Positions 6,925-37,639 of a stretch of DNA of 64,000 bases are shown in pieces. The DNA is from Eledone cirrhosa (Eukaryota). The position numbers and the translations under genes were made by a program. The stretch's first letter is position 1. Every line of letters starts with the position of its first letter. The notes beneath the pieces are model-generated. The model was not told the DNA's origin and made no database searches. It saw nothing but the letters and a program-made list of their open reading frames with translations. Location: contig OZ024741.1 of assembly GCA_964016885.1 (NCBI GenBank), positions 49,662,001 to 49,726,000 of the forward strand, in the 5' to 3' direction.

Positions 6925-7165
6925 TGGTAGTGGAGGTAGTATTGGTGGTAGCAGAAGTAGCATTGGTTGTGGTAGTAGTAGTAGTAATAGTATTGGTGGT
7001 GGTAGTGGTAGTAGTATTGGTAGCAGCAGTAGTGGTGGTGGTGGTAGTAGTAGTATTGGTAGCAGTGGTGGTGGTGGTAGTAGTATTGGTAGTAATGGTG
7101 GTGGTGATAGTAATAGTATTGGTGATGGTAGTAGTAGTAGTAACAAAAACAACAGCAGCAATAAC
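6925..7165. repeat. (GTA/GTG)n trinucleotide microsatellite
   Basis: Direct inspection. Confidence 0.95.
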
Positions 7166-7949: not shown

Positions 7950-8365
7950 CATGACCGAAAGAATATGATCACAAATACAAGTGGCCAAAATGGGGTTCCC
8001 CCAAAGGGCTTTTGGAGTAATGTTACTCGATAGAGTCCACAGCTCAGAGATCAGAGAGTCACTCCAGGTAGAGCCACTACTTCTTTGAATTGAAAGATCA
8101 CAGCTCCAACACTATGGGCATGTGGTTAGGATATCTCAGGAAAGAATTGTTGGACAGATATTATGGACAAAACCAGCTGGCAGGAGACCCAGGAGACTGC
8201 AAGCAGGCTGGTTGGATAACATCCATGAGCTTCACTGGTCTCACTTGGGGATCCAGCTAGATCAGTTGGAGATAGTTGCTTCTGACAGGGTCCGCTAGAA
8301 GGAGTATTTGAGGACTTTGCCCCCACGACCCTCTCAGAAATAAGTGGGTGATGAAGAAGAAGAGA
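7950..8365 (+). mobile_element. RTE (Rex3/Expander-like) LINE 3' fragment with (GAA)n tail
   Basis: Translates LLDRVHSSEIRESLQVEPLLL*IERSQLQHYGHVVR. Related copies at 43561-43820 and 45345-45640. Confidence 0.75.
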
Positions 8366-9429: not shown

Positions 9430-9955
9430 GACTGCAGTTGAAATCATAAAGCCCACAACCAGTAATCCTGATCCTGCATAGCTTTCATCAGATCTTCTTT
9501 GGCAATCCATGTGTCCCTACTGATGACATCCCCAAATGTTAATTTCTTACTTCTATAGCTATGGGTTTGGGGTCTCCAGAGGATAAGGGATGATATTATG
9601 TCTCTTTCTTCTCTGTAACAATGGCCTGCAAACTGAACCTACCAAGCTTTCACTAATAAAGAAACATGGTACAGGTTGCCATACAGTAGCTCTCGGATTA
9701 GATGTTGTCTCCAAGAGATATTTTTTGCTTACCTTCAAAGTCTTGTGTATATGCCATCTAATCTTTTCTGTAATTTTTCTGTCATTGTCCGGTTTCAGAG
9801 CCATACAGGAGTATACTCAAATGTGGCCCTCAAGATTTGTACTTTTAGTTCAACACTCAAATTAGATTCCTATATCTTATGGCACATGTCATTTGAGGCA
9901 ACCCATGCCATACCCTTTCTGACATTAACATCTGTTTCAGAAAAGGAAATGTAAG
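9430..9955 (-). mobile_element. Degenerate RTE/RTE-X LINE 3' fragment (family D)
   Basis: Minus translation includes KRLDGIYTRL, NISWRQHL and QFAGHCYR. Confidence 0.65.
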
Positions 9956-9956
9956 A

Positions 9957-10190
9957 TCCTATGTACTCGAATATAAGCCAATACAAATATAAGCTGACCC
10001 TACTATTTTATGAGAAATGGGTAAGAATCTAAACCTTATTTACGTAGAAGTTAAAGTAGGTAAAAACTGTCAAAATATTGCCCCCCCCCCCCCCCCCCCG
10101 CATGTGTGTGTATGTGTGAGTGTCCCATCGATTTTTTTTCTGATTTTTTTCCCCCAAACCTATTAGCTTATGTTCAAGTATATACAGTAG
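9957..10190. mobile_element. Tc1/mariner-pogo (Tc2-like) MITE
   Basis: Ends tactcgaatataagcc ... gcttatgttcaagtatatacagta. Related copy at 41556-41764. Confidence 0.55.
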
Positions 10191-10584
10191 TTATAGTCAC
10201 CAACTTTGCTTAAAACTTTTCTGTTTAATGTCTTTATCTGGGATATTGTTTTAGCAAGTTACTATATTTAAAAACAAGGAATATCTTTCATTGGCCTAGG
10301 AACACCTTTCATTAATTTTAAGTATTAAAACTATTTTGAAATTCTCTCAAGCCCATAAACAGTTTCAATTGTAGCTTATTTTCACTTAGTTGATGTCCAA
10401 TAGTAGGGATAAACTAATTATTTAGATTTGGTGCTATTCCAACATTAAAGTCAGTTGCTTATTTTTATTTGTAAGACATGGTTTTCCCAGTTTATTCATA
10501 TTTATACATGTATAGTTGCATGTCGTTATATATTTAGGTTCATTTGTTTGTAAGTGCGTTCTGTTAGTATCTGGAATATTTTCT

Positions 10585-10909
10585 TGGCTTTGTGGTTAGA
10601 GCGTCAGGCATACAATCTTGGGGTGGATTCGATTCTCAGACTAGGCTTTGCATTGTGTTCTTGAGCAAGACACTTTATTTCACGTTGCTCCAGTTTACTC
10701 AGCTGTAGAAATGAGTTGCGATGTCACTGGTGCCAAGCTCTATCAACCTTAGCCTTTCCCTTGGACAACATCAGTGGCATGAAGAAGGGAGACTGGTATA
10801 CATGGGCGACTGCTGGTCTTCCACAAACAACCTTACCTGGACTTGTGCTTCGGAAGGAAACTTTCTAGGTGCAAATCCCATGGTCATTCATGACTGAAGG
10901 GGGTCTTTA
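10585..10909 (+). mobile_element. CORE-SINE with a different 3' tail
   Basis: tRNA-like head and ttgagcaagacactttatttcacgttgctccag; tail ends gggggtcttta. Confidence 0.75.
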
Positions 10910-11147
10910 GGTGCATATATATATATCACTCCTGTGAGATCTGTATTGTATTGCTTGTTGCTTATTTTTTGAGGGGGATGTGATGTGTGATGTTACATTC
11001 ATTTTAGATCTGTTGTGGGGCCTGAGCATACGACTGGCACACATTGGACCCTCCCTGAGGAAACTACTCACCAAACCCTCACCTGCATGCAATGATATAT
11101 GCATATTCCTAACTGTCCCATCAACAACGCGAAGTTGTACACTCTAT

Positions 11148-14520: not shown

Positions 14521-15802
14521 CTATGTATCATATATATGTACACATATAAGCAGGGAGATGGAGGGAAAGAGAGAAAGAAAGGAAGAAAGCAGGAACCGAA
14601 TAGAGAGGAATAGATTTGAATTTCTTCTAATATATAAGTCCACTACCAGAACATGAGGTCAAATAATGGAGGTAGCAAAGGAATGGTCATTGTGTACATA
14701 AACACACAAGGATATAACCACACATACACACACAAATATATATATACACATCAAGCACCATCATTGATAAAACTATACATATACTCATACGCATGTGTAA
14801 ATATACACCATATACAGCAGTTCTCCTTACTGTCACCTACTGGTGTTGCTAAAGTAGAGAAATTTTGATAAATTGGCACAAAATCGACATCCATTACATT
14901 TTAAAAAACACTCTCTAAAATAGAAAATTAGGTTTATGATCAAGGCCTCATTTTAGCTTTGTTCTTAAAAGGTAGCAGGAGCTCTGTTTGAAGTGGTTGC
15001 CTTGCATGAAGAAGGCACCCTCTTCAGAGAAGGGGGCCCAGAGCATTTTCCATCTGCACCTTCTTATAAATCCAGCCCTGATCATACAAGAAATGTGTGG
15101 TTCAAATCATTGCAGAGTTTTCTTTCTCCGTTTTTTTCCATCTCCAGGGTACTTTAGTCTATTATTATAGTAATCTGCATCAGGCAAGTATGTATGTGTG
15201 GATGTATATATGTGCATATTATAGTTGTGTGTACGTGTGCATGCGTATATAAATGAAAGGAATTTTTGACTGCTATGAATACAGAACTCAGCTTTGAGAT
15301 TCCATTATCAATTTTCCCTCCATTATTTCTCTGCAAAATAACTTAACCATCTTCCACTTGATATTCAAGTCAAACATGTTCCCATGCTGGACAAATATCT
15401 GTTGCTGTTTCCATTATTGAATTACCAAAGATTGCATCAATAAATAAATGAGGTAAAAATTACTTTAAAACAACACCAATAAACCCAAGAATGGAACCTG
15501 TTTTTTTTTCTTTAATTATTAATATCTGAAAGCATTTTTCATTTTAAATGGCAAAAAAGGCAAAATAAATAAAGGAATAAATAAATAAATAAAAACTAAG
15601 TAAAAATAAACAAGAATAAGTGAAAAGCTTTGTGGAAGATATCAATGAATAAATATTAATAATGAAGGATGTAATGGTGGTGGTGGTGGTGGCAGTGGCA
15701 AAATGCATGGGTGCATACACATACACACACGTGTATATATGTACATATATATTTGTATGTATGTATATATATATATGTATATGTATATATATGTATATAT
15801 GT

Positions 15803-17966
15803 ATTGTTATACTTGGGGAGGGTCATATTTGTGTATTATTGCCAGAATTAATAACAGAACACACTCACTGTTTGGTTGGTTTTCGCTTCTGTGTCTTTTA
15901 TATCGGTAATCTAATTTATTCGGTCCTCAATATTGCCATTGACTGACCAACGGTCAAAAATACAGATACAATATAGACACAAACACATATATATAGTCTA
16001 TCAAAGTTCTTTCGTTGCGCATCTGCAACATCGTCAGTGGTGCTATTGTTTCCTCCCGTTGCATTGTATTTTCTACGCCATCTTTATTTAGTCTGTTTAT
16101 ATATATATATATATATATTCTTTTTTTTTGTCTTCTTTGCGCATGTGTGTTCGTGATTGGGTCACTGTGTATTGGTTAATGTATTCTGTCTTTACTAGTG
16201 TGTGATTATATGTGTTGTTATTGTGCTTGTGTATGTATTTATTTATTTATTTATACTTCTCTTAGGTCAGTGTTGTTTGTTTGGGTGTTGTTGTTATTCC
16301 ATTCATTTTTTTCTGTTTAGCCTTGGGCTTCTAAGTTCTATTTCACTGGCCTCTCTGATTTGCCTATCTGCTGGGTCATTTCTATGTTTAGATATTATTC
16401 TAATTTCTATGTTGTCTATGTTACCGTCGTGTTGTTGTCTGGCATGTTTGTATAGTACTGAACCGTTTTTTCGTCCTTTTAGTTCCCCCCAGTGTTGGTC
16501 TATCCTTTCACCTATGCTACGAGCTGTCTCGCCTATGTATGTTGTTGTCATGTTTCTGCAAGTACCCTCTGTACATCTTATGTTATAGACTACGTTTCTA
16601 CTTTTACAGTTTATCCGGGGGTTTACCTTACATATAATACATTTCCTATTAGTACAGTGGGTTTTCTTAAAAGGGTAGGTTTTGCTGATCAGGGATTTTA
16701 TGGTGGTTCCTGGCTTTTCTACCACCTTAATCTTTAACTGGGTCTTTCTCAGGGCCTTTCTACACTGGTTAGCTAATTTCCCTCCAGGGGTAGCATCCAC
16801 AACCGTGACACTCTGGTATCTCTGGTTGTCATACCATGAGGTGGCTTTCCCTATCTAAGCTATTCCATGATTTGCTCCTGTATAATGGGCAAATTCCTTT
16901 CATGTCCAGTTCTATGAGGGTCTTATACTTCTCCGTGGTGCTTCGTATACTCTGATTCTGTCTCTTTGGTTGTAGCCAGAGAACTGCATGCGGTTGATGA
17001 AGTGTTGGATGTGTCTTTCCATTTCTGTTGGGTCGCACATGCGGGACACGTTCTTCATCACTCGTACCAAGTCTGCGAATATTAAACTTAGCACTACTGG
17101 ACATTGCTGAGTTTTTGAGTATCAGGTATTTGGAGGCCATGGGTTTAGCATAGTGTGAGTGGAGAATTTGGGCTCTCTCGTCTATAGTGTTAATCCAGAG
17201 TTCCGTGTCTAATACAGGTAGTCTATTGTTTGGGTGTTTGGAAGGGTATTCGATAGTTACAGTTATACTCTGGTGTATGGAATTAGCTATCTGCTGGATG
17301 CTTTCCATTGTTCTACGTTCTAAATCAAACTTGTTAGTGCTCTCTTGTGGGGATGTTCTTATAACTATATTGATATTGTCTACATAACGAGAGTACTATG
17401 GAGCTCTCATTAAGGAGATCTTTAAGTCTCCTTTCCCACCATACCATAAAAAGGTTGGCAACGTCACCAGCTATGCTGACGCCAATGGCTGCTCCCTCAT
17501 TTTGCAACAAAAACAGGAACTTATCCAACTGCATAATAGGCAGCATGGATGTGGTATCACTGTACCCATCCATTAACATTGATTTTGCTGTGGAAAAATG
17601 TGTGGAGATGATCATTGAGAGTGAGGTGGAGTTCTGCGACGTCGACACAGACGAACTGGGCCTCCTACTTAGACTTTCCTACGACACTGACTATCTAGAC
17701 AGCCATGACCTTAGACGTTTCTGCCCCAATAGACCCATAAGAGGTAGACCCCCACCATAACCTCAATGGCCAAAAAGACTCCCATGGGAAGGTGGATTAG
17801 GTGGACCAAAGCTATACGGACTCCCCAAAACAATGATCAGGTAAGAAAAATGGTCGCACATGCAATAGGAGCTAGCATCAAAACTACCCTAAAGGGCCAC
17901 ATATTCAAGTTCAACGAGAAGATCTACACCCAAAATGAGGGAGCAGCCATTGGCGTCAGCATAGCT
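15803..17966 (-). mobile_element. Penelope-like element (RT + C-terminal GIY-YIG), 5'-truncated, with 5' inversion (17505-17966 on +)
   Basis: GIY-YIG VVYNIRC..YIGETARSIGERIDQH (16303-16800). RT motifs SMDVVSLYPSI, QNEGAAIG, YSRYVDNINI and LPVLDTELW. The 3' end ccctccccaagtataacaat runs into TA repeat. Confidence 0.9.
16001..16040 (-). ncRNA. Hammerhead ribozyme-like motif in the Penelope 3' region
   Basis: CCA CTGACGA T GTTGC-agatgc-GCAAC GAAA GAACT T TGA; stem I is weak. Confidence 0.6.
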
Positions 17967-18039
17967 ATATATATACATATATATATGTGTATATATATAT
18001 GTGTATATATATATATGTGTATGTATATATATGTATATG

Positions 18040-19612
18040 TCATCATCATCGTTTAACGTCCATATTCCACGCTTGCATGGATTTGGACGGGGGTTTTCCC
18101 ACTTGATGCAAGAGTGGTTGTCTTGCTTGCATAGGACTGTCTGGCGGGTTTTCTACGGCTGGATGCCCTTCCTAACACCAACCACATTTACAGTGTGGAA
18201 CTGGGAGGTTTTTACTGTGTTACCTACACGGCCACATTACAGCGTGGACTGTGTGTTTTTTTTTGTCGTGACACCTACACGACCTCATTTGTTTCGGGCT
18301 GGATGTTGTGACACCAACATAACTTTACATTGAAAGGGGTGGTGTGGATGGGGTGGGGTAGTGGGACGGGGTGTATTTTGTTAGAGGTGCCTACTGACTG
18401 TAGTAGGTTTCACTTTGTACTTAGGTAAGGCGGGTCTTCTCTATTACTGTGTAGCGCCAAAGCTCTCGGTCCAGTGACATTGTCTTGGAGAGCTGTAAGT
18501 GTGTGAGGTCGGAATTTATCAAGTCGTCCCAGGTTTTTCTGGATCTGTCTACTCCGTGGCTACCGTCTATTTTTATTGCCCCGCACTTTTTTATACAGCT
18601 GTTGTCTTTCATGCGCATCACATGACCATACCAACGTAGTCTTCTCTCGACTAAACAACATCTGATCCCTCTTATTTCTAATTTCTCCCTTAGTACGTTT
18701 ATGCTTTGCCGTTCGCGTATATTACTATTACACATCCAGCGGAGCATGCAAGCTTCGTTCCTCTCCAGTCTGCATATATCCTCTGCCCACAATGCCCAGG
18801 TCTCACTGCCATGTAACATTGCTGTTCGTATGCAGGCATCATACAACCTGCCTTTCATTTTTAGAGAGAACCCTTTAGCGGCCAATAGTGGTATAAGCTC
18901 TCTGAACTTTTTCCATCCTGTTCTGACGCTAGCTACTGTACTTTCAGAGCACCCTCCCCCACTGCTGATTTTGTCACCTAGTTAACGGAAGCTGTCCACT
19001 ATTTCTATAGAACCCTCTGCGCAATTGAAAGAGCTAGTATTTTGTGGGCACTTGCTGCTACTTATTGCACCAGAGCACCGGCCACATGTAAAATCTATGT
19101 TCTTAGTTAGCTTACCTGTGATCCCACTACATCTTTTATGCACCCATACTTTGCATTTGGGACATAGAATGGAGTTTCTACCTACGCCTTTCCTACACAC
19201 TGAGCATGGCCATTTCCCGGAAGGGACCGGCGCCTTATTTTCTTTCCTATTAACCTTAGCCAGGTTAATTTTAAGGCATTTTGATTCTAGGCCGTGCTTC
19301 CATGTTTGGAATTTCTTCTCTAGCTCGGCCATTGATTCAGCTTTGGGCATTAGATCATCTGCGTATAGGAGTTCCCATGGGCAGCCGGTCTTGAACTCCA
19401 CTGTTATAGCCTGTAGGGCAATAATAAATAGTAGGGGGCTAAGAACAGAGCCCTGATGAACACCAACTTTTACGCTAAACTCTTCACTATATTCGTTGTT
19501 AATTCTAACCTTGCTGACTGTTTCTTTATACATGGCTTGTATAGCTCTCTCAAGCCATTCATCAACACCTAGTTTTCTAAGAGCCCACCAGATAATGGAA
19601 CGGGGGACTCTG
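18040..19612 (-). mobile_element. RTE LINE family B, copy 1 (5'-truncated)
   Basis: RT, PHD and C-terminal ORFs at 18421-19612; 3' UTR and (ATG)n tail at 18040. Confidence 0.95.
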
Positions 19613-19645
19613 TATATATATATGTATATATATATGTATATATAT

Positions 19646-19679
<34 letters not shown>

Positions 19680-19681
19680 AT

Positions 19682-21675
19682 ACGGGTAAGGCAGCTGGGC
19701 CTTCGGAAATAGTTGCTGAGATGCTGAAGGCATCTGGCACGGTGGGACACACCATGGTCACCCGGATAGTTAACCAAGTCGTACAGAATGGGGTTGTTCC
19801 GAAGGACTGGCATAGCAGCATCATCGTTAACTGTTATAACGGTAAAGGAGATGCCCTAGATAGGAGTAACTTTAGAGGCATTAAATTAATCGACCAGTTC
19901 ATGAAGGTCACGGAAAAAGTAATAGCGCAACTAATCAGAGAGAGAATTGACCTAGATGAAATGCAGTTCGGGTTTGTGTCAGGCAAAAGTACCACAGATG
20001 CTCTTTTCATTGTACGACAACTACAGGAGAAGTACCTAGCTAAAAGTAAACCCCTATACTTAGCTTTTGTCGACTTGGAGAAAGCCTTCGACAGACTCCC
20101 CCGTTCCATTATCTGGTGGGCTCTTAGAAAACTAGGTGTCGACGAATGGCTTGTGAGAGCTATACAAGCCATGTATAAAGAAACAGTCAGCAAGGTTAGA
20201 ATTAACAACGAATATAGTGAAGGGTTTAGCGTAAAAGTTGGCGTCCATCTGGGCTCTGTTCTCAGCCCCCTACTATTTATTATTGCCCTTCAGGCTATAA
20301 CAGAGGAGTTCAAGACCGGCTGCCCATGGGAACTCCTATACGCAGATGACCTAACACTCATAGCTGAATCAATGGCTGGGCTAGAGAATAAATTCCAAAC
20401 ATGGAAGCACGGCCTAGAATCAAAAGGCCTTAAAATTAACCTGGCTAAGACCAAAGTTCTAGTTTGTAGGAAAGAAAATAAGGCGGCGGTCCCTTCCGGA
20501 AAGTGGCCATGCTCAGTGTGTAGGAAAGGCGTAGGTAGAAACTCCATTTTGTGTCAGAAATGCAAAGTATGGGTGCATAAAAGATGTAGTGGGATCACAG
20601 GTAAGCTAACTAAGAACATAGATTTCACATGTGGCCATTGCTCTGGTGCAATAAGTAGCAGTAAGTGCCCACAAAATACTAGCTCTTTCAACTGCGCAGA
20701 GGGCTCTATAGAAATAGTGGACAGCTTCCGTTACCTGGGTGACAAAATCAGCAGTGGTGGAGGGTACTTTGAAAGTACGGTAGCTAGAGTCAGAACTGGA
20801 TGGAAAAAGTTCAGAGAGCTTATACCACTATTAGCAGCTAAAGGGTTCTCCCTAAAAATGAAAGGCAGGTTGTATGATGCCTGCATACGAACAGCAATGT
20901 TGCATGGCAGTGAGACCTGGGTATTGTGTGCAGAGGATATACGCAGACTAGAGAGGAACGAAGCTTGCATGCTCCGCTGGATGTGTAATAGTAATATACG
21001 GGAACGGCAAAGCATAAACGAACTAAGGAAAAAATTAGAAATAAGAGGGATCAGATGTTGTTTACTCGAGAGAACGCTACGTTGGTATGGACACGTGATG
21101 CGCATGAAAGTCGATAGCTGTATAACAAAGTGCAGGGCAATAAAGATAGACGGTAGCCACGGAATAGGCAGACCTAGAAAAACCTGCGACGAGCTGATAA
21201 ACTCCGACCTCACACGCTTACACCTCTCCAAGACAATGTCACTGGACCGAGACCTTTGGCGGTACTCAGTAATAGAGAAGACCCGCCTTACCTAAATACA
21301 TAGTAAAACCTACTACAGTCAGTAGGCATCTCTAACAAAATACACCCCGTCCCACCACCCCCACCCCATCCACACCACCCCTTCTATGTAAAGCTATGTT
21401 GGTGCCACACCATCCAGGCCGAAACAAATGAGATCGTGTAGGTGTCACGACAAAAAAACACAGTCCACGCTGTAATGTGGCCGTGTAGGCAACACGGTAA
21501 AAACCTCCCAGACCCACACTGTAAATGTGGTTGGTGTTAGGAAGGGCATCCAACTGTAGAAAACCTGCCAGACAGTCCTATGCGAGCAAGACAATCACTC
21601 TTGCCTCAAGTGGGAAACCCCCGTCCAAACCCGTGCAAGCGTGGAACACGGACTTAAATGTTGATGATGATGATG
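19682..21675 (+). mobile_element. RTE LINE family B, copy 2 (5'-truncated; RT-PHD frame open to 21295)
   Basis: TGKAAGP..FVDLEKAFD..LLYADD..CSVC..TRLT*, then UTR and (ATG)n. Confidence 0.95.
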
Positions 21676-21689
21676 TATATATATATGTG

Positions 21690-21723
<34 letters not shown>

Positions 21724-21739
21724 CATGTATATATGTATA

Positions 21740-21786
<47 letters not shown>

Positions 21787-21915
21787 GTATATGTATATAT
21801 ATGTATATATATGTATATATATGTATATGTATATATATGTATATATATGTATATATATGTATATATATGTATATGTATATATATGTATATATATGTATAT
21901 ATATGTATATGTATA

Positions 21916-21955
<40 letters not shown>

Positions 21956-21984
21956 CGTATATATATATATATGTATATATGTAT

Positions 21985-24900
21985 GCTAACTACCTCCCAA
22001 ATATCTGACAGTGACTATATAATTATTGCAGGCGACCTAAATGGTCACGTTGGACAACATTGTGACGGCTACGACGAAATCCATGGAGGCTATGGGTTTG
22101 GTACTAGAAATGAGGAGGGCTCCAGAATCCTGGAATTCTGTGATGCAAATAACCTAACTATCTGTAACACTAACTTCAAAAAACGTGACAATCACCTGAT
22201 CATCTATAGATCGGGGGAACACACAAGCCAGGTAGATTATATCCTTACCAGAAGACGTGACAGAGTGTCTGTTGTAAACACTAAATCCCTCCTCCATGAA
22301 GAATGCACCTCCCAACATTGACTGATAATTAGCGACCTCATAGTCAGGACGAGACGTACTCGACAGCAGAAGAGGACTATCCTCAGGAGAAAAATATGGA
22401 AGCTAAAGGACCCCACAGCCAGAAATAAATTTCAAAGCATATTACTTGATGCTTTCGACAGTAAGGAAGAGCAATTAGAGTCGTACAATATAGAGGGACA
22501 GTGGAAATTTCTGAAAGCAAACCTGCTGATGGCGGCAGACGAAGTCTTTGGCTGGAGCAGGCCTGTAGGCAGGAGGAGAGTAACATAGTGGTGGAACAGT
22601 AAGGTGGAGGGGTCAATTAAGGCCAAAAAGCAGGCTTGGAAAGTATGGCGGGATGGGGGAAGTAGAGTAGACTATCAAGTGGCCAGGAGGGAAGCTAGGA
22701 GACAAGTGTACTTAGCAAGAAGGGAAGCTGAGGAAAGAAAGTTCAAGCATGTTCTACAACGCGATGACCAAAAACGTGAGGTGTTCAGGATTGCTAGGCA
22801 ATGCGTCAAGGAAAACCGTGATATTATCGGGGAGAAGTGTGTACTTAACGATGATGGCATATTTGCCATCACCGACGCTGATGAGAAGGTAGCTTGGAAG
22901 TGTCACTATGAAAGGCTACTAAATGAGGAGAATAAATGGGAGAAAGACAGTCTCCCCCATATCGACCCAATAGAGGGACCAGCAGTGTTAGTCGAGGGGA
23001 GTAAAATAAGTAAGGCAATCAAGGATATGAAGACGGGTAAGGCGGCTGGGCCTTCGGAAATAGTTGCTGAGATGCTGAAGGCATCTGGCACGGTGGGACA
23101 CACCATGGTCACCCGCATAGTTAACCAAGTCGTACAGAATGGGGTTGTTCCGAAGGACTGGCATAGCAGCATCATCGTTAACTGTTATAAGGGTAAAGGA
23201 GACGCCCTAGATAGGAGTAACTATAGAGGCATTAAATTAATCGACCAGGTCATGAAGGTCGCGGAAAAAGTAATAGCGCAACTAATCAGAGAGAGAATTG
23301 ACCTAGATGAAATGCAGTTCGGCTTTGTGTCAGGCAAAAGTACCACAGACGCTCTTTTCATAGTACGACAACTACAGGAGAAGTACCTAGCTAAAGGTAA
23401 ACCCCTCTACTTAGCTTTTGTCGACTTGGAGAAAGCCTTCGATAGAGTCCCCCGCTCCATTATCTGGTGGGCTCTTAGAAAACTAGGCGTTGACGAATGG
23501 CTTGTGAGGGCTATACAAGCCATGTATAAAGAAACAGTCAGCAAGGTTAGAATTAACAACGAATATAGTGAAGAGTTTAGCGTAAAAGTTGGCGTCCATC
23601 AGGGCTCTGTTCTCAGCCCCCTACTATTTATTATTGCCCTTCAGGCTATAACAGAGGAGTTCAAGACAGGCTGCCCATGGGAACTCCTATACGCAGACGA
23701 CCTGACCCTCATAGCGGAATCAATGGCCGAGCTAGAGAAGAAATTCCAAACATGGAAGCACGGCCTAGAGTCAAAAGGACTTAAAATTAACCTGGCTAAG
23801 ACCAAAGTTCTAGTTTGTAGGAAAGAAAACAAGGCGGCGGTCCCTTCTGGGAAATGGCCGTGCTAGGTGTGTAGGAAAGGCGTAGGTAGAAACTCCATTT
23901 TATGTCCTAAATGCAAAGTATGGGTGCATAAGAGATGTAGTGGGATCACAGGTAAGCTAACTAAGAACATAGATTTTACATGTGGCCGGTGTTCTGGTGC
24001 AATAAGTAGCAGCAAGTGCCCACAAAATACTAGCTCTTTCAATTGCGCAGAGGGTTCTATAGAAATAGTGGACAGCTTCCGTTACCTGGGCGATGAAATC
24101 AGCAGTGGGGGAGGGTGCTCTGAAAGTACTGTAGCTAGAGTCAGAACTGGTTGGAAAAAGTTCAGAGAGCTTATACCACTATTAGCTGCTAAAGGGTTCT
24201 CCCTAAAAATGAAAGGCAGGTTGTACGATGCCTGCATACGAACAGCAATGCTGCATGGCAGTGAGACCTGGGCATTGTGTGCAGAGGATATACGCAGACT
24301 AGAGAGGAACGAAGCTTGTATGCTCCGCTGGATGTGTAACAGTAATATACGTGAACGGCAAAGCATAAACGAACTAAGGAAAAAATTAGAGATAAGAGGG
24401 ATCAGATGTTGTTTACTCGAGAGAAGGCTACGTTGGTATGGACACGTGATGCACATGAAAGTCGATAGCTGTATAACAAAGTGCAGGGCAATAAAGATAG
24501 ACGGTAGCCACGGAATAGGCAGACCTAGAAAAACCTGGGACGAGCTGATAAACTCCGACCTCACACACTTACACCTCTCCAAGACATTGTCACTGGACCG
24601 AGACCTTTGGCGGTACTCAGTAACAGAGAAGACCCGCCTTACCTAAATATATAGTAAAACCTACTCCAGCCAGTAGGCATCTCTAACAAAATACACCCCG
24701 TCCCACCACCACCACCCCCACCCCATCCACACCACCCCTTCTATGTAAAGTTATGTTGGTGCCGCGCCATCCAGGCCGAAACAAATGAGATCGTGTAGGT
24801 GTCACGACAAAAAAACACACAGTCCACGCTGTAATGTGGCCGTGTAGGCAACATGGTAAAAACCTCCCAGACCCACGCTGTAAATGTGGTTGGTGTTAGG

Positions 24901-25035
24901 AAGGGCATCCAACTGTAGAAAACCTGCCAGACAGTCCTATGCGAGCAAGACAATCACTCTTGCCTCAAGTGGGACTACCCCCGTCCAAACCCATGCAAGC
25001 GTGGAACACGGACGTTAAACGTTGATGATGATGAT
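21985..25035 (+). mobile_element. RTE LINE family B, copy 3 (partial APE + RT + PHD), with stops
   Basis: APE motifs AGDLNGHVG and QVDYIL; RT at 22604-23866 with stop at 23864-23866; (ATG)n tail. Confidence 0.95.
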
Positions 25036-25162
25036 ATGTATATATATGTATATGTATATATATGTATATATATGTATATGTATATATATGTATATGTATA
25101 TATATATATGTATATGTATATATAAGTATATGTATATATATATATATATATGTATATATATG

Positions 25163-25215
<53 letters not shown>

Positions 25216-25247
25216 ATATATGTATATATGTATATATATGTATATAT

Positions 25248-25943
25248 ATCATCATCATCATCATCATCAACGTTTAACGTCCGTGTTCCACGCTTGCATG
25301 GGTTTGGACGGGGGTAGTCCCACTTGTAAAATTTATGTTCTTAGTTAGCTTACCTGTGATCCCACTACATCTTTTATGCACCCATACTTTGCATTTAGGA
25401 CATAAAATGGAGTTTCTACCTACGCCTTTCCTACACACCGAGCACGACCATTTCCCAGAAGGGACCGCCGCCTTGTTTTCTTTCCTACAAACTAGAACTT
25501 TGGTCTTAGCCAGGTTAATTTTAAGTCCTTTTGACTCTAGGCCATGCTTCCATGTTTGGAATTTCTTCTCTAGCTCGGCCATTGATTCCGCTATGAGTGT
25601 CAGGTCGTCTGCGTATAGGAGTTCCCATGGGCAGCCTGTCTTGAACTCCTCTGTTATAGCCTGAAGGGCAATAATAAATAGTAGGGGGCTGAGAACAGAG
25701 CCATGATGGACGCCAACTTTTACGCTAAACTCTTCACTATATTCGTTGTTAATTCTAACCTTGCTGACTGTTTCTTTATACATGGCTTGTATAGCCCTCA
25801 CAAGCCATTCGTCAACGCCTAGTTTTCTAAGAGCCCACCAGATAATGGAGCGGGGGACTCTGTCGACGGCTTTCTCCAAGTCGACAAAAGCTAAGTAGAG
25901 GGGTTTACCTTTAGCTAGGTACTTCTCCTGTAGTTGTCTACTA
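25248..25943 (-). mobile_element. RTE LINE family B, copy 4, with ~1 kb internal deletion
   Basis: RT segment RQLQEKY..KNINFT joined directly to the terminal ~75 nt at 25326/25327. Confidence 0.9.
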
Positions 25944-25984
25944 ATATATGTATATATATATATATATATGTATATATATGTATG

Positions 25985-26023
<39 letters not shown>

Positions 26024-26114
26024 ATGTATATATATGTATATGTATGTATATGTATATATATGTATATATATGTATATGTATGTATATGTATATATATGTA
26101 TATATATGTATATA

Positions 26115-26153
<39 letters not shown>

Positions 26154-26164
26154 ATATATATATG

Positions 26165-26196
<32 letters not shown>

Positions 26197-26283
26197 TATG
26201 TATATATGTATGTATGTATATATATGTATGTATGTATGTATATATATATATGTATATATGTATATATATGTATATATGTATAT

Positions 26284-26324
<41 letters not shown>

Positions 26325-26343
26325 TATGTATATATGTATATAT

Positions 26344-26384
<41 letters not shown>

Positions 26385-26396
26385 TATGTATATATG

Positions 26397-26443
<47 letters not shown>

Positions 26444-26794
26444 GTATATATATATATGTATATATATGTATATATATATATGTATATATATGTATATATA
26501 TATATGTATATATATATATGTATATATATGTATATATATATATGTATATATATATATGTATATATATGTATATATATATATGTATATATATGTATATATA
26601 TATATGTATATATATGTATATATATATATGTATATATATGTATATGTATATATATGTATAAATGTATATATATGTATATATGTATATATATGTATATGTA
26701 TATATATGTATATATATGTATATATATATGTATATGTATATGTATATATATGTATATATATGTATGTATATATATATATATATGTATATGTATG

Positions 26795-26827
<33 letters not shown>

Positions 26828-27076
26828 GTATGTATATATATATATGTATGTATATATGTATGTATATATATATATGTATGTATATATGTATGTATGTATA
26901 TGTATATATTTATATATATATGTATATATATATATGTATATATGTATATATATATGTATATATGTATATATATATGTATATATATATATGTATATATATA
27001 TGTATATATATATGTATATATGTTTATATTTATATATATATGTATATATATATATATGTATATATATGTATATATG

Positions 27077-27111
<35 letters not shown>

Positions 27112-27146
27112 GTATATATGTATATATATATATATATGTATATATG

Positions 27147-27178
<32 letters not shown>

Positions 27179-27182
27179 ATAT

Positions 27183-27220
<38 letters not shown>

Positions 27221-27237
27221 GTATATATGTATATATG

Positions 27238-27269
<32 letters not shown>

Positions 27270-27274
27270 ATATG

Positions 27275-27311
<37 letters not shown>

Positions 27312-27360
27312 GTATGTATATATATATATGTATATGTATATATATATGTATATATATATG

Positions 27361-27397
<37 letters not shown>

Positions 27398-27554
27398 GTA
27401 TGTATATATATATATGTATATGTATATATATATGTATATATATATGTATATATATATATGTATATATGTATATATATATGTATATATATATGTATATATA
27501 TATATGTATATATGTATATATGTATATATATATGTATATATATATATGTATATA

Positions 27555-27597
<43 letters not shown>

Positions 27598-27700
27598 ATA
27601 TATATATGTATATATATATATGTATATATGTATATGTATATATATATATGTATATATATATATGTATGTATATATATGTATATATGTATATATATATATG

Positions 27701-27745
<45 letters not shown>

Positions 27746-27761
27746 ATATGTATGCGTATAT
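25944..27761. repeat. ~1.8 kb (TA)n / TATATG satellite
   Basis: Almost only T and A, with interspersed G on the + strand. Confidence 0.97.
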
Positions 27762-27948
27762 ATCATCATCATCTTCGTTTAACGTAGATGATGATGATAT
27801 ATACACATACATATATACACATACATATATATACACATACATATATGTATGTGTATATGTGTATATATGTATGTGTATGTATACGTATGTGTATATATGT
27901 ATGTATACGTATATATATGTATATGTATGTATATATATATATGTATGT

Positions 27949-28296
27949 ATCATCATTCATTTCATCATTTCATTTTACGTCCGCTTTTCCCTGCTTGCAA
28001 GGGTGGGACTGGAACTGATTCTGGCTTGATTTCTACAGCTGGATGCCCTTCCTAACACCAACCTTATTTACAGTGAGTGCTGGGTGCTTTTCTGCCGTGG
28101 CACCTCCACAACCACTTTGCAGTGGAATGATAGAGACCCCAGTCCCTATCATCTCATTTCTACAGCTGAGTAAACTGGAGCAATGTGAAATAAAGTCTCT
28201 TGCTCAAGGAAACAACACATCACCCGGTCTTAGAATTGAACTCACAACCTTTCGATTGCAAGCCCAATGCTCTAACCACTAAGCCATGTGCCTCCA
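27949..28296 (-). mobile_element. CORE-SINE with the same body as 264-650 but an RTE family C tail
   Basis: Near-identical head and body; tail GTCCCACCCTTGCAAGCAGGGAAAAGCGGACGTAAAATG. Confidence 0.85.
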
Positions 28297-28451
28297 TAAT
28301 GTATATATATATATACATATGTATATGTATATATATATATATATATATATGTGTGGTGTGTGTATATATGTGTATGTGTGTGTATATGTATATATATATG
28401 TATGTGTATATATATATATATATGTGTGTGTATGTATATACACATGTATGT

Positions 28452-28695
28452 ATCATCATCGTTTAATGCCCATCTTCCATGCTTGCATGGGTTTGGACGG
28501 GAATTTTCCTACTTGAGACAAGATTGGTTGTCTTGTTCGTATAGGATTGTCTGGCGGGTTTTCTACGGCTGGATACCCTTCCTAACACCAACCACGTTTA
28601 CAGTGTGGACTGGGAGGTTTTTACCATGTCACCTACACGGCTACATTACAGCATAGACTGTATGTTTTTTTTGTCATTTATTTAGGACTGGATGT
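28452..28695 (-). mobile_element. RTE family B 3' UTR fragment
   Basis: Matches 18040-18300; TA repeat on both sides. Confidence 0.85.
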
Positions 28696-29089
28696 ATATA
28701 TATATATGAATGAAGTAATTCTGTTGGAAATGTCCAGGAAAAAAGTGTGCTCTCTGTAGGTTACAGAGCTTAATAGTTATGTAATAAACAACATAAGGCA
28801 ATTATTTCATTTACCAGTGGTTTCTTGAAAGCAAACAAATTTTGCTTTCAATCATCAGAATGAAAAAATCCTGGTGTATTTATTGACATTGGATTTTAAA
28901 AACAAAAATATACTATATGAAAGTGAGGCTGGAAAAGGAAGAAGGAAAGGAAAAATAAACACATGCACACACAATTACATACACACATATATACATACAC
29001 ATATATATACATACATATACACACATATATATATATATATATATACATACATACACATATACATACACATACATATACATACATACACA

Positions 29090-30438
29090 CTGTTCTTAGC
29101 CCTCTCCTGTTCATCATAGTCCTGCAGGCAATAACGGAGGAGTTTAAGACCGGATGCCCATGGGAACTCCTGTATGCTGATGACCTCGCACTCATAGCTG
29201 AATCTATGGTAGAACTAGAGAATAAATTCCAAACCTGGAAGCAGGGACTAGAGAGAAAGGGCCTCAAAGTCAACATGACAAAGACTAAGGTCCTTATAAG
29301 TAGACGAGAAAACAGAACCCAGATCCCCTCAGGGAAATGGCCTTGCTCAGTATGTAGGAAAGGTGTAGGTAGGAACTCCATTCTCTGCCCCAAATGCAAA
29401 CAATGGGTACACAAGAGATGTAGCGGGATCTCAGGAAGCTTAATTAAGAATGTAGGATTCACATGCAGCAGCTGTGCTGAAACACCAAGCAAACAGCCAC
29501 AGGAAACAAGTACCACCAATCTCTGGGAGGGCCCTGTAGAAACAGTAGACAGCTTCTGCTACCTAGGTGACCGAATTAGCAACGGAGGTGGGTGCTCAGA
29601 AAGTACAATAACTAGGGTAAGAACGGGATGGAAGAAGTTTAGGGAACTACTACCACTGCTAGCTGCAAAAGGCTTCTCCCTCAGAATGAAAGGCAGACTG
29701 TATGATGCGTGTATCCGAACAGCGATGTTGCATGGTAGTGAGACCTGGGCGCTGAAGGTGGAAGACTTACGTAGATTAGAGAGAAACGAAGCCTGCATGC
29801 TCCGATGGATGTGTAACAGTAATATACGCGAACGACAAAGCATAAAGGAATTGAGAGAGAGACTGAGCATAAGAGGAATCAAATGCTGCGTGCAGGAGAG
29901 GCGGTTACGCTGGTATGGACATGTGATGCGTATGAAGGATGACAGCTGCATAAAAAGGTGCAGAGCACTAGAAGTTGATGGAAACCGCGGAGTGGGGAGA
30001 CCCAAGATGACTTGGGATGAGGTGATAAAAGCCGACCTTACCCAACTACACCTCTCAAAGTCAATGACACACGACCGTGACTTCTGGCGTCACGCAGTAA
30101 TACAGGGTACCCGACCTCCCATGGGTACATGCTGAAGCATATAAACAATATGCCCCCCCCCCCCCACCGCAAGGTGGTCGTGGAGGTGCCACGGCAAAAA
30201 AGCACCCAGCCCACACTGTAAAGTGGACGTGTAGGCGCCACGAAAAAGCACCCAGCACTCACTGTAAATGAGGTTGGTGTTAGGAAGGGCATCCAGCTGT
30301 AGAAATCAAGCCAGATCAGTTCCTGTATGAGCAAGGCATGGTCAGCCGACCAGACACTGCCCACAACAGGACAACCCGTCTAACCCATGCTAGCGTGGAA
30401 GAACGGACGTAAAACGGTGATGATGATGATGATGATGA
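29090..30438 (+). mobile_element. RTE LINE family A, copy 2 (5'-truncated; open frame to 30135)
   Basis: VLSPLLF..LLYADD..PHD..FCYLGD..RRLRWYGHV; (ATG)n tail; CA/TA repeats on both flanks. Confidence 0.95.
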
Positions 30439-31039
30439 CATATATGTATCAACATATCCATTCATACACGCACACAAATACACAAACACACACGTGTATA
30501 TATATATATATATATATACATCTATATATATATATATATACATACACATAATCATACATATATACACACGTACATACACACACGTACATACACACACGTA
30601 CATACACACACGTACATACACACATATATACACATATACATACGCAGACACAAATATAGATATACGTACAGACACCTACATACGCACACACAATTAATTA
30701 TAAGAAAAAATATAATAAAAATACTGTCACATAAGAATAAAAATAAATGTAAAAAGTATTATAAAGTTGATAGAGGCAACAAATAACTGAACACACGTGG
30801 TAAGCAATACACACAATTGCACACACATACATACATAAATATAAATACATACACACACACTCCTACATATACACATACATATACACACACTCATACAATA
30901 AATACATACACACACACTCATACAATAAATACATACACACACATGCATGTGTGTAAAACTCATATATATATATATATATAATATATATATGTGTGTGTGT
31001 ACACACATATCTGCATAATAAACATTATCTCATACAATG

Positions 31040-31225
31040 GGCGGTGGATTGGCAGTATCGGTAGAGGGTCGGACGCCATGCTTTGACGCATAGAGTTACG
31101 GCCCTTGCCATTCTGAGTTCAAATCCCGCCGAGGTTAACTTTGCCTTTCATCCTTACGGGGTCGATAAAATAAAGTACCAGTAATGTACTGGGTAATTTC
31201 TGGCCTTGTGCCAATAGTAGAAACA
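31040..31225 (+). mobile_element. tRNA-derived SINE (second superfamily) with a 16-bp TSD
   Basis: B-box GAGTTCAAATCC and core TTTGCCTTTCATCCTTACGGGGTCGATAAAATAAAGTACC. TSD attatctcatacaatg at 31024-31039 and 31226-31241. Confidence 0.85.
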
Positions 31226-31915
31226 ATTATCTCATACAATGTTTTTTTACAGTAAATTTTGAAAATGAAGTAGGGAATAATTTCTAACAGGAGTGTTTTT
31301 CCTGGAAACTATCTCTAGCTTACTTTGACTAATATATTATGGATTTTCATGTGATTGGGAGTCATTTGGAATTAGACAGGAAGCTATGAAGGTTAATAAA
31401 TCATAGTTAGGAGAATTCCTTTTTTTTAATATTTTTAACTAATAAACTTTATCATCAGAAAATAGCATTACTGATTTTTCTATTTTCTTTTTTTTAGAGA
31501 GTTGAATATTATTGATAGTAATCATAACTATTTATGTTTTCTCTTTACACATTAGTGAAATTTAATTCTAATTCTGTATTTTTCAACATCACAATATCTA
31601 CTTCATATTCCTGTAAAACATTTCCCCATTTAGACAAATATTGATTTCTTTAGACTAGACACATTGCCAATTTTGTTGGGAATGGGTATAGTCAATTGAA
31701 TCAACTTCCAGTGAATTAGTGATACTTATTTTATTGATTCAAGAAGGATGAAAATTCAATTCTGATTGGATTTGAACTTGGAATTCTTAGGTACCAACCT
31801 ATTTTCTGTAAAGTATTCAGTAAAGTATTTAATCTTGGCATTTTACTGAATGCAGCCTTGTCTGCTGCCTCATTTAAATAAATATCGATTTCTTTTCACT
31901 AAATACATGTCCAAT

Positions 31916-31979
<64 letters not shown>

Positions 31980-32240
31980 AATGTTATAAATATATGTATA
32001 TAATATATGTAATATATATATATATAATATATGTAATATATATATAATATATGTTATATATATATATATAATATGTATATATGTAATATATATGTATATA
32101 ATATATGTAGATATATGTATATAATATATGTAGATATATGTATATAATATATGTAGATATATGTATATAATATATATATATATATATGTATATAATATAT
32201 GTAATATATATATGTGTATATATAATATGTGTATATATAA

Positions 32241-32762
32241 TCTAAACTATAATAAAGGAAGGTCTGCAGGACTGCGTACGTTTTTTTTTTTCCCCGTTAG
32301 TAAAATAAGTTGGATTACTTTGAATAAATAATGACTAAATATTACATAATTTATCTACTAAATTTCGTAAACAAAAATAATTTTGTAAAAAAAATAATTT
32401 AAAATTGACTTCTTTTCAAAGTTGCACTTCCGGTATATCGTTGCCACCACCACCACTTCAACTACTATATAGAAAGAGAGAGTGTGTGATGTCAACACTT
32501 CCGGTGGCGATCACTTAAATAAACATACTAATTTTCTCCTAATTTAGTTCATATATGATATCGTCTTTTTTTAATGTATCATGGATTACGTTACTGATTA
32601 CATAAGACAGTGTAACAACGTCTTCGTTCAATTTCTGTTTATATTGTCAATTACGATTTTATTTGATGTATCATATCTACATGTATATATACTTATGTAT
32701 AATATCAATATACACACTACACATGCTAGCAGAAAACCACCCGAAGGGTGGTTTTCTGCTAG
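32241..32762 (+). mobile_element. Non-autonomous Helitron
   Basis: A|TCTAAACTATAATAAA ... hairpin-CTAG|T, no TSD, embedded in TA satellite. Confidence 0.75.
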
Positions 32763-33029
32763 TATATGTAATATATATATATGGAATATGTATATCTATA
32801 TAATATATGTAATATATATATATATAAGAAAGTTGGGATAGATGGTATATATTTTACCATAATCCACGTGCAACCACCCCAATTAGGAATAATGTATTGT
32901 GTACACTCTGGGTATAGGCTTGCACAATCCCACATTCAAATTTTGTTTTGTTGAGTGAATAATGAGAGCAGCCAGGACCATAATAAATATAATTCCTATG
33001 ACTTTGATTTCCTATAAATATATATATAT

Positions 33030-33245
33030 ATATTGTTATACTTTGGGAGGTTCATGTTGCCAATAAAAACATACACACCTGTTGGTTTTCACTTTAATTT
33101 AATATAAAATTCCAGTTGATTATTTACCAGATGGTTGTTTATTTCTTTGTCAAAGCTCTTTTGTCACATATTCTGTGACCTCCTCAGTGACTAATTTGTT
33201 ATTTTGTGTCTCTCCTTTGTTTTGTCCTATACCATATGGCGTCCT
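33030..33245 (-). mobile_element. Short Penelope 3'-end copy with decayed hammerhead (33149-33191)
   Basis: End aacctcccaaagtataacaat matches the 15803 end. Motif GTCA CTGAGGA G GTCACA-gaata-TGTGAC aAAA GAGCT T TGAC. Confidence 0.7.
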
Positions 33246-33251
33246 ATACCA

Positions 33252-33457
33252 CAGGATGTCCCCAAAAAATGCATACATACTTTGATTACCTGTACAGGCA
33301 ATATTTATTAGAATGTACAGCCTTTCCCAAAAATAAAATCTACAGACATAATCCAATTGTATGTAAATACATAATTTAAATAATGCATATAAAAGAGAAT
33401 TTATTTTAATGTACTTTTTAAAGATTGAAGTCTTTATATATTTTTAAGGACATCCTG
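33252..33457. mobile_element. Tc1/mariner-like MITE
   Basis: TIR CAGGATGTCC ... GGACATCCTG|TA. Confidence 0.5.
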
Positions 33458-33739
33458 TATATAAGGTAAGGATGTGGTTTAACTGAAACACTACTGTATT
33501 GTTAGCATATATTTTATCAATGTCGCAAAAATGGAAAGCAGCATTAACAAAGGCAATATTTGAACTCAGAACTCTAAAACATTCAATCATAAAGTTTCAT
33601 TGACCTAACCAGTTCAGCCACTTCATATTATTTAAACACCTATAAGCTTGCTTCTCCTATCACTTTATTCTTTTTGTAGTCAAAGAAATTAGCATAAGTG
33701 TTAAACAGCAACTTGTAATCAATCGTTTTTAGTTGATTT

Positions 33740-34560
33740 TATTATTATTATTATTATTTAAAACTTCCTTTGAATCCTGCTTCTTTCCCAAATCATGCCA
33801 AGTGTCAACATCATTATTATTATTTTTATTGGACTATTACTGCTTTACCAAGCACAGCTCTGGGTATGAGCAGTGTAGTTTTTGCTGATGGTGTTTCTAT
33901 TGTATTGATAGTACTTTTCGTAACATGTATGCAGTGCCTAGTAGTGCTATCTTTTGTATGCTGTATATACTTGTAAGTCCTGGGGTTTGGGCTATGCATT
34001 TGTCTGTGTGGTTTATTTTTAATCATTCCTAGAGCACCTATTATTATAGGTATTGTTTCTGTTTTCATTTTCTACATTCGGGTTATTTCTATCTCTAGAT
34101 CTTTATATTTGGAGAGTTTCTCTATTTCCTTGGAAGATATATTGTCATCTGTGGGGATTGCTACATCTATTAGAATATTAGAAGGCATTTTTTTTTTCCT
34201 TCCTTGTGGTCTTTGACTATAATATCTGATCTGTTGGCCTTGATCTCTCTGCCTGTATGTATTGGCATATCCCAGAGAATGGTTGCTTTGTCATTCTGTG
34301 ACACTTTTTCTGTTGGTATTTCATAATGCTGGCATAACTTCCAGTGTATGAAGGTTCCTACTTAATCATATCTATGAATATATTCTTTTTTGGACTATGT
34401 GGTTGATTGTTTCTTCCCTATCTCCACATATTCTACAGTTACTTATAGTGCTTTGTTTCATTATGTACATCTGCTAGTTTCTGGTAGGTAGATTCTGGTC
34501 CTGTACTGCCATTAGAAATCTTTCAGTTCAGTGCTTCGGAGCTAGTTTTGTGTGTTTTCT
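33740..34560 (-). mobile_element. R4/Dong-like non-LTR retrotransposon 3' fragment (zinc knuckle + restriction-like endonuclease)
   Basis: Minus translation CRICGDREETINHI, ILWDMPIHTGREIKANRSDIIVKD, KLSKYKDLEIEITRM and IPIIIGALG; (TAA)n at the 3' end. Confidence 0.85.
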
Positions 34561-37460: not shown

Positions 37461-37639
37461 CTTTCAATTGTAGAAAAAAAAGATTATGAAAGATGTAAAT
37501 GAATGAATTATACTGAATTATACTTTCAATTGTAGAAAAAAAAGATTATGAAAGATGTAAATGAATGAATTATACTGAATTATACTTTCAATTGTAGAAA
37601 AAAAAGATTATGAAAGATGTAAATGAATGAATTATACTG
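37461..37639. repeat. 62-bp tandem repeat, ~2.9 identical copies
   Basis: ctttcaattgtag starts at 37461, 37523 and 37585. Confidence 0.95.

What the first reader, a model, noticed from the sequence alone, without database searches (positions are those of the whole stretch)
17967..30690. TA/TATATG satellite landing pad with many independent insertions
Seen: four RTE-B copies, a micro-tail, a SINE, an RTE-B UTR and the Penelope end are each separated only by TA-rich tracts, and an RTE-A sits in a neighbouring CA/TA tract. Spacers from ~17990 to 27761 keep G on the + strand whatever the element orientation. Elsewhere a Helitron (32241), Penelope ends (33030, 60561, 62436) and RTE ends (11433, 51431) also abut TA. 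Inference: one ancestral satellite was repeatedly targeted by elements with unrelated nucleases (APE, GIY-YIG, HUH), possibly via TA cruciforms or breaks, in a self-reinforcing TE-microsatellite cycle.
Basis: partly seen in the sequence, partly recalled or inferred. Interest (0 to 1): 0.75.

Follow-up and report, generated by a model that had tools for sequence, protein, structure and literature searches.

The report
Jumping-gene pile-up in a TA satellite
Eight jumping-gene pieces sit in a row inside one TA-rich repeat array; such families land next to TA repeats across this genome, likely because each cuts or primes at short AT-type words that these arrays pack densely, so this is likely an extreme case of a known pattern rather than a special fragile site.

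Summary
The cluster is real and larger than reported: it spans 15732-28706, with one Penelope-like element (PLE) and seven RTE-driven pieces in one (TA)n/TATG array. The four RTE-B copies have different 5' ends, and each is closer to copies elsewhere than to its neighbours. Genome-wide, 397 of 1,809 five-unit RTE tails abut (AT)5, against 1.7% for random positions. G-type and C-type flanks are 229 and 230, so the flank is target, not tail. Given an AT|AT junction, the excess disappears: 36.5% against 38.0%. A short motif plus (GAT)n-tail pairing therefore suffices for RTE, with no need for cruciforms. The PLE shows a stronger run bias (77.7%), already published for such PLEs. The Helitron lies outside the array and follows its usual A|T rule. 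Unexplained: 7 RTE pieces against about 0.9 expected, and one tail fold-back. No reads were laid across the tracts. Plant SaTar arrays are the precedent, and this scan noted similar pile-ups on other DNA of this genome.

The parts
15732..15804 (.). Left end of the TA/TATG array (G on + strand)
   Evidence: G 9, C 1
15803..17966 (-). 5'-truncated Penelope-like element with C-terminal GIY-YIG. CX4CxxC linker and CCHH-type residues read by eye (Neptune/Nematis-like). 17374-17966 is an inverted RT piece, with a 36-bp inverted copy at 17469-17504/17931-17966
   Evidence: translations; homolog P0003 carries PF00078 and PF01541; no Pfam hit on the window ORFs themselves; inversion
17967..18038 (.). 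Spacer, G on +
   Evidence: 8/1
18039..19612 (-). RTE-B copy 1, 5'-truncated, older subfamily
   Evidence: 93.0-94.1% to neighbours, 96.2% to L253
19613..19682 (.). Spacer, G on +
   Evidence: 4/0
19683..21675 (+). RTE-B copy 2 (RT and PHD), 5'-truncated
   Evidence: Pfam RVT_1 4e-29, PHD 8e-6; nearest copy L056 97.7%
21676..21984 (.). Spacer, G on +
   Evidence: 27/2
21985..25033 (+). RTE-B copy 3, longest; part of the endonuclease, RT and PHD, with stop codons; (GAT)4 tail
   Evidence: 99.1% to dispersed copies
25034..25249 (.). Spacer between two tails, G on +
   Evidence: 20/0
25250..25943 (-). RTE-B copy 4, 5'-truncated, with an internal deletion of about 980 bases joined at a short near-identical word (25320-25326)
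   Evidence: 98.5% to copy 3 but 99.1% to dispersed copies
25944..27761 (.). 1.8-kb (TA)n/TATG array core
   Evidence: 173/1
27762..27798 (.). Micro-tail: 12 bases of RTE 3' end plus (GAT)4 on the - strand, folded back at a 3-base loop (27779-27781); an inverted copy of tail and flank runs to about 27843
27799..27949 (.). Spacer; first ~45 bases C-type (inverted arm), then G-type
27950..28298 (-). SINE sharing the RTE 3' end
   Evidence: 97% to 385-652; tRNA-like head by eye only, ARAGORN finds none
28299..28453 (.). Spacer, G on +
   Evidence: 27/3
28454..28692 (-). RTE-B 3' UTR fragment
28693..28706 (.). Right end of the array (short TA)
28961..30690 (+). Separate CA/TA tract (C on +) holding a 5'-truncated RTE-A at 29090-30436
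32241..32762 (+). Non-autonomous Helitron-like element (A|TC ... hairpin CTAG|T) in another TA tract; not part of the cluster

Best explanation
This is one TA/TATG array holding seven RTE-driven pieces and one Penelope-like element, which likely arrived as separate insertions at different times, each by its family's own target rule. The RTE enzyme likely nicks at a short T|ATRT-type word, helped by a T-stretch about 10 bases upstream where one exists. The freed AT end likely pairs with the (GAU)n RNA tail to prime copying, leaving a duplication of only a few bases. TA arrays pack that word about ten times more densely than average DNA and offer it on both strands, so copies land in either orientation while the array keeps its strand. 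The PLE has a true preference for TA runs, as published for PLEs with a CX2-5CxxC linker. Shown: junction statistics, strand independence, distinct ends and ages. Inferred: the nick chemistry, tail pairing and order of arrival.
For: Tails with exactly five GAT: 11,978 - 10,169 = 1,809; 397 are followed by (AT)5, against 1.7% of random positions. G-type 229, C-type 230. 1,088 of 1,809 continue with AT, against 33% expected after any AT. Given AT|AT: 36.5% (CI 33.6-39.4) against 38.0% (bootstrap 34.3-41.3). Flank lengths match background. Both ends: 43 of 64 non-satellite copies are TA-adjacent at 3', 33 of 46 with a visible 5' end at 5'. The two flanks of a copy share interruption words (25 pairs, Jaccard 0.21 against 0.07 permuted, p=0.0002). 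29 of 93 copies lie in a non-TA 18-bp satellite, all in one orientation, 26 of 29 at one phase; the used strand has TTT at -11 to -9 and T|A at the site, the unused strand has no TTT, as in the Tn-TA signature (PMC13295347 passages). 22 of 64 copies are joined to another element by TA alone. PLE: 9,962 of 12,815 and 28 of 30 termini.
Against: The locus holds 7 RTE pieces against 0.93 expected from site density (Poisson p=5e-5). Scaled to roughly 4,000-11,000 long arrays (extrapolated from 1-3 per 800 kb), chance gives only about 0.2-0.6 such loci, so an extra local factor is likely. On C1, 14 of 65 gaps are under 10 kb against 5.1 expected. The G/C class of the two flanks agrees in only 7 of 10 informative copies (22 examined). 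The T-stretch is not enriched in non-array copies (4 of 13 against 26%), and pure TA has no T-stretch. Only 9 of 20 satellite copies show a clean short duplication. The background is today's genome and 800 kb only. The PLE count is for a sister subfamily (7 of 7 termini of the window's variant are TA-adjacent), and PLE termini often come in pairs. No read support across the tracts.
Confidence: 0.72

Rival explanations
1. Long TA runs extrude cruciforms or break, and elements with unrelated nucleases are captured at these structures.
For: PLE termini exceed a short-motif model: 77.7% against 38-52%. Local excess of 7 against 0.9. A fold-back at the micro-tail and an internal deletion in copy 4 look like repair products. 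TA repeats are reported to break and be repaired by MMEJ (PMC13645644, search listing only).
Against: RTE shows no run-length dependence. RTE uses one phase and one strand in a non-TA satellite. The window's array is interrupted by G every 3-13 bases, which spoils TA symmetry (inference). Helitron relatives mostly avoid long runs.
Confidence: 0.12
2. Self-reinforcing growth: a short TA site was hit first, and DNA synthesis at or after each insertion lengthened the tract and made new targets.
For: The fold-back added about 45 bases of inverted satellite (48 of 51 arm positions pair). Maize TAFTA empty sites of 6-8 bp are reported to expand after insertion (PMC5907723 passage). Unexplained local excess.
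Against: Flanks are not longer than background, and there is no age trend. Both flanks share units too long for a few-base duplication, such as a 25-base unit at L053/L054. No other tail fold-back in 1.49 Mb of fetched loci. The arm also matches 6 other places in the array equally well.
Confidence: 0.1
3. Local duplication or recombination between TA tracts multiplied one or two insertions.
For: This happens elsewhere: three 54-base copies with the same 5' end in the 18-bp satellite (L219, L223). Copies 3 and 4 are 98.5% alike.
Against: The four copies have different 5' ends and mixed orientation; pairwise identity is 93.0-98.5%, and each has closer matches elsewhere among 38 copies compared.
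Confidence: 0.03
4. Misassembly: unrelated loci were joined through TA repeats.
For: Not tested with reads across the tracts.
Against: Eight informative spacers keep G on one strand (chance 0.008). Most spacers are 70-310 bases. The window lies in a 416-Mb contig, and 200 of 800,000 sampled bases are N. TA-linked pairs are common elsewhere.
Confidence: 0.03

Closest known systems
SaTar modular arrays of guayule and rice (PMC5907723; abstract, text parts 1-2 of 6 and passages)
   Same: Unrelated, non-nested elements in a row, linked by (TA)n-type microsatellites; 19-47% of copies linked, against 22 of 64 here.
   Different: SaTars are non-autonomous MULE DNA transposons. Here the stack is RTE LINE/SINE plus PLE, and a short motif accounts for the RTE part.
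RTE-clade LINEs and SINEs with the Tn-TA insertion signature (PMC6007223 and PMC13295347; abstracts and passages)
   Same: T|A cut site, T-stretch about 10 bases upstream in the satellite, microsatellite tail overlapping the target by 1-2 bases, SINE sharing the 3' end.
   Different: (GAT)n tail; duplications of only about 2-6 bases where visible (the 2018 paper searched only 10-49 bp); heavy use of pure TA without a T-stretch; PHD hit after the RT.
(TA)n-biased PLEs: Neptune, Naiad, Hydra (PMC8557442; passages)
   Same: GIY-YIG with CX2-5CxxC linker, inverted 5'-truncated structure, tail extension at one end only, (TA)n targets.
   Different: Clade placement is by motifs read by eye, without a tree; the extension is about 55 bases here against 30-40.
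Helitrons, e.g. Helraiser (PMC4778049; passages)
   Same: TC...hairpin CTAG ends, A|T site, AT-rich 3' flank.
   Different: Nothing essential; not a long-array targeter here.
RTE-2_OV of Octopus vulgaris (PMC9115989, passages) and lepidopteran RTE microsatellite families (PMC2887409, abstract)
   Same: RTE LINEs associated with microsatellites.
   Different: Those microsatellites are element-encoded 3' UTRs; here the TA is target DNA (229 against 230). Sequence identity to RTE-2_OV was not tested.

Membership tests
RTE-clade LINE | APE endonuclease followed by RT in one long frame | tested here: met
   Pfam Exo_endo_phos and RVT_1 in that order in the window's longer copies, frames broken by stops
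RTE-clade LINE | 3' microsatellite tail, 5' truncation, SINE with shared 3' end | tested here: met
RTE-clade LINE | RT phylogeny groups with RTE/Bov-B | not tested
Tn-TA insertion signature | T|A at the cut site | tested here: met
   26 of 29 satellite copies at one phase; 1,088 of 1,809 tails continue with AT
Tn-TA insertion signature | T-stretch about 10 bases upstream | tested here: inconclusive
   present on the used satellite strand, absent on the unused one; 4 of 13 non-array copies against 26% background
EN+ Penelope-like element (Neptune/Nematis type) | RT with C-terminal GIY-YIG | tested here: met
   motifs by eye; homolog with PF00078 and PF01541, E 2.5e-7; no direct Pfam hit
EN+ Penelope-like element (Neptune/Nematis type) | CX2-5CxxC linker and CCHH motif | tested here: met
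   translation of 16303-16854, read by eye
EN+ Penelope-like element (Neptune/Nematis type) | Hammerhead ribozyme in the pLTR | tested here: inconclusive
   no Rfam match at gathering score in 15000-34000; no weaker search run
SaTar-type modular array | Non-nested elements linked only by microsatellite | tested here: met
SaTar-type modular array | Elements are MULEs with terminal inverted repeats | tested here: not met
   all are retroelements; works like a SaTar array, is not one
Helitron | 5'-TC, 3' hairpin and CTRR, A|T site | tested here: met
Helitron | RepHel (HUH) protein | not tested
   element is 522 bases and non-coding; no autonomous partner sought

The most novel reading that the evidence does not exclude
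RTE insertion itself builds satellite. The new cDNA can snap back at the palindromic 3' end and copy out through the tail into the flanking array, adding inverted satellite and new targets. Hit arrays then attract further hits, which would explain the roughly 7-fold local excess and help explain why TA arrays make up about 7% of this genome.
Probability: 0.13. Interest if true: 0.6.

Novelty: new member of a known kind. Interest (0 to 1): 0.3.

Why it matters
If the best explanation holds, several element families converge on TA arrays by separate rules: a short motif for RTE, a run preference for the PLE, and A|T for the Helitron. No common fragile-site mechanism is needed. The genome offers thousands of natural insertions for testing tail-guided target choice in RTE LINEs and linker-guided (TA)n targeting in PLEs, both proposed in print as hypotheses. 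Such stacks also matter for assembly and for microsatellite markers. The pattern is known from plants, and this locus is one instance among many.

Tried and rejected
Element-encoded TA tail: rejected (229 against 230). Local duplication of RTE-B: rejected. Helitron as an array-targeting third family: not supported. In one search, 20 of 30 loci were read in the wrong orientation; redone with 7 of 29 at 3' and 2 of 22 at 5' (self locus dropped; the 3' end is uncertain in 4). My first link census (4 links among 256 elements) undercounted because of strict boundaries; one search replaced it, and its counts for short tracts include TA runs inside elements. The TSD scan was ambiguous in TA flanks. 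Rfam and ARAGORN found nothing. Nine runs were listed for the left flank, three of them holding half or more of its words, all from one sample that may be the source; no reads were laid, so this is no evidence either way. Eight literature searches found no paper on stacked RTE/PLE insertions in TA arrays of a cephalopod. Supplements of PMC8557442 and of the RTE papers were not read and may list these families. The conifer Dryad PLE paper is recalled only and was not held.

Full report
Setting. The window lies in a 416-Mb contig of a 3.0-Gb animal genome. TA-type tracts make up 7.3% of an 80 x 10-kb systematic sample, and 7.7% of positions have an 8-base TA run starting within 12 bases.

Anatomy. 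From 15732 to 28706 there are eight pieces joined only by TA/TATG tracts: a PLE, four RTE-B copies (-, +, +, -), a micro-tail, a SINE and an RTE-B 3' UTR. All eight informative spacers have more G than C on the + strand. The PLE has TA on both sides, so it lies inside the array. The RTE-A at 29090-30436 is separated by about 255 ordinary bases and has C-type flanks. Pfam finds RVT_1 and PHD in the RTE frames and an endonuclease domain in the longer copies. The PLE frames give no Pfam hit, but they show RT motifs, a CX4CxxC linker and GIY-YIG motifs by eye, and 1 of 6 longer homologs carries RT plus GIY-YIG domains.

Independent insertions. The four RTE-B copies have different 5' ends. Over a shared 541-base stretch they are 93.0-98.5% alike, and each has closer matches elsewhere among 38 copies: 96.2, 97.7, 99.1 and 99.1%. 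At least two subfamily ages are present.

Genome-wide enrichment. An exact 33-mer of the RTE-B end occurs 11,732 times. Of 1,809 tails with exactly five GAT units (the anchor may include related RTE families), 397 are followed by (AT)5, 229 by a G-type and 230 by a C-type alternating run. That is 47% in all, against 3.6% for random positions. The equal G and C counts show that the flank does not come from the element. Among 93 young copies from the start of C1, 29 lie in an 18-bp satellite. Of the other 64, 43 are TA-adjacent at the 3' end, and 33 of the 46 with a visible 5' end are TA-adjacent there. The two flanks share interruption words more than permuted pairs do (25 pairs, p=0.0002), although the coarse G/C class agrees in only 7 of 10 informative cases. 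A control SINE is TA-adjacent in 1 of 21 cases. 22 of the 64 copies are joined to another element by TA alone; some pairs are counted from both sides.

Motif or structure? 1,088 of the 1,809 tails continue with AT. Of these, 36.5% run on as (AT)5; random AT|AT sites do so in 38.0%. Flank lengths at 61 such junctions match 4,000 random sites (p=0.59), apart from fewer very short ones (16% against 31%). Young and old tails do not differ (14 of 29 against 8 of 19). In the non-TA satellite all 29 copies face one way and 26 sit at one phase; 20 have visible 5' ends, 18 of them distinct, and 9 show a duplication of 4-6 bases. The used strand has TTT 9-11 bases upstream of T|A, and the unused strand has none. 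This matches the published Tn-TA signature and the proposed role of the tail repeat (PMC6007223, PMC13295347; passages). Outside arrays the T-stretch test was inconclusive (4 of 13). So a short word plus AT pairing with the tail explains the RTE data; the chemistry is inferred.

PLE and Helitron. A degenerate PLE terminus occurs 41,027 times, often as outward-facing pairs, and 28 of 30 termini are TA-adjacent. For one subfamily, 9,962 of 12,815 ends with an AT|AT junction run on as (AT)5, well above the 38-52% that 4- to 7-letter motifs give. This is a true run preference, though those flanks are not significantly longer than background (p=0.14). Such a bias is in print for PLEs with this linker (PMC8557442, passages). 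The Helitron hairpin has 103 exact hits. 7 of 29 relatives have a TA run at the 3' end, mostly only 8 bases, and 2 of 22 at the 5' end, which fits the known A|T and AT-rich preference (PMC4778049, passages).

What remains unexplained. The 2,880 spacer bases hold 1,674 AT|AT sites, predicting 0.93 RTE-type tails against 7 seen (p=5e-5). Gaps on C1 are also clustered (14 of 65 under 10 kb against 5.1, satellite block left out). A once-longer array, weak selection at this place, array growth or chromatin reading by the PHD finger are untested options. The micro-tail is a hairpin with a 3-base loop in which 48 of 51 positions pair, and the array switches strand over that arm. The arm is low in complexity and matches 6 other places equally well, so fold-back synthesis is likely but not proven. 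No second case was found in 1.49 Mb of fetched loci.

Assembly. The shared strand, the short spacers and the long contig make it unlikely.

Comparison and verdict. Rows of unrelated, non-nested elements linked by (TA)n are described as SaTar arrays in plants (PMC5907723). This locus works like one but is built from retroelements. Eight literature searches found no account for a cephalopod. Earlier notes of this scan describe an RTE pile-up and the phased satellite on other DNA of this genome; they are unchecked notes, and my counts were made separately. Observation confirmed; interpretation partly supported; new member of a known kind; interest 0.3.

Noticed in passing
G000:C1 about 7.4-9.6 Mb (L208-L237): An 18-bp satellite array with 29 sampled RTE-B copies, all in one orientation and 26 at one phase; three 54-base copies with the same 5' end look duplicated by the array itself.
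   Followed up: yes
window 27762-27843: Fold-back hairpin of an RTE tail plus flank, with a local strand switch of the array.
   Followed up: partly
window 15803-17966: The PLE has an inverted RT piece and a 36-bp inverted duplication, resembling twin priming or template switching.
   Followed up: partly
L141-L170: PLE termini often occur as outward-facing pairs 70-3,500 bases apart, with one end carrying an extension of about 55 bases.
   Followed up: partly
window 61957-62526: A second GIY-YIG-like frame without internal cysteines (Hydra-like by eye) that abuts TA and then an RTE tail at 62436.
   Followed up: no
L171-L200: Helitron 3' flanks often carry TAAT 7-10 bases downstream, resembling the element's own 5' end; the hairpin loop occurs in both orientations in sister subfamilies; L191 looks like a tandem insertion.
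   Followed up: no
window 1417-4790: Near full-length RTE-A-type copy (endonuclease, RT, PHD), frames broken, with a short TA run at its 5' end.
   Followed up: partly
L003, L053, L054, L106: Minisatellites made of a 10-25-base unique unit alternating with (TA)n, suggesting that TA tracts drive tandem duplication of neighbouring DNA.
   Followed up: no
window 37461-37639, 52072-52303, 62593-62903: A perfect 62-base tandem (2.9 copies), and 112-base and 48-base tandem repeats inside RTE 3' UTRs.
   Followed up: no
window 15732-19682 and 27798-28453: Neighbouring spacers have nearly equal lengths (73, 72, 70; 153, 155) but different sequences; unexplained, possibly chance.
   Followed up: partly
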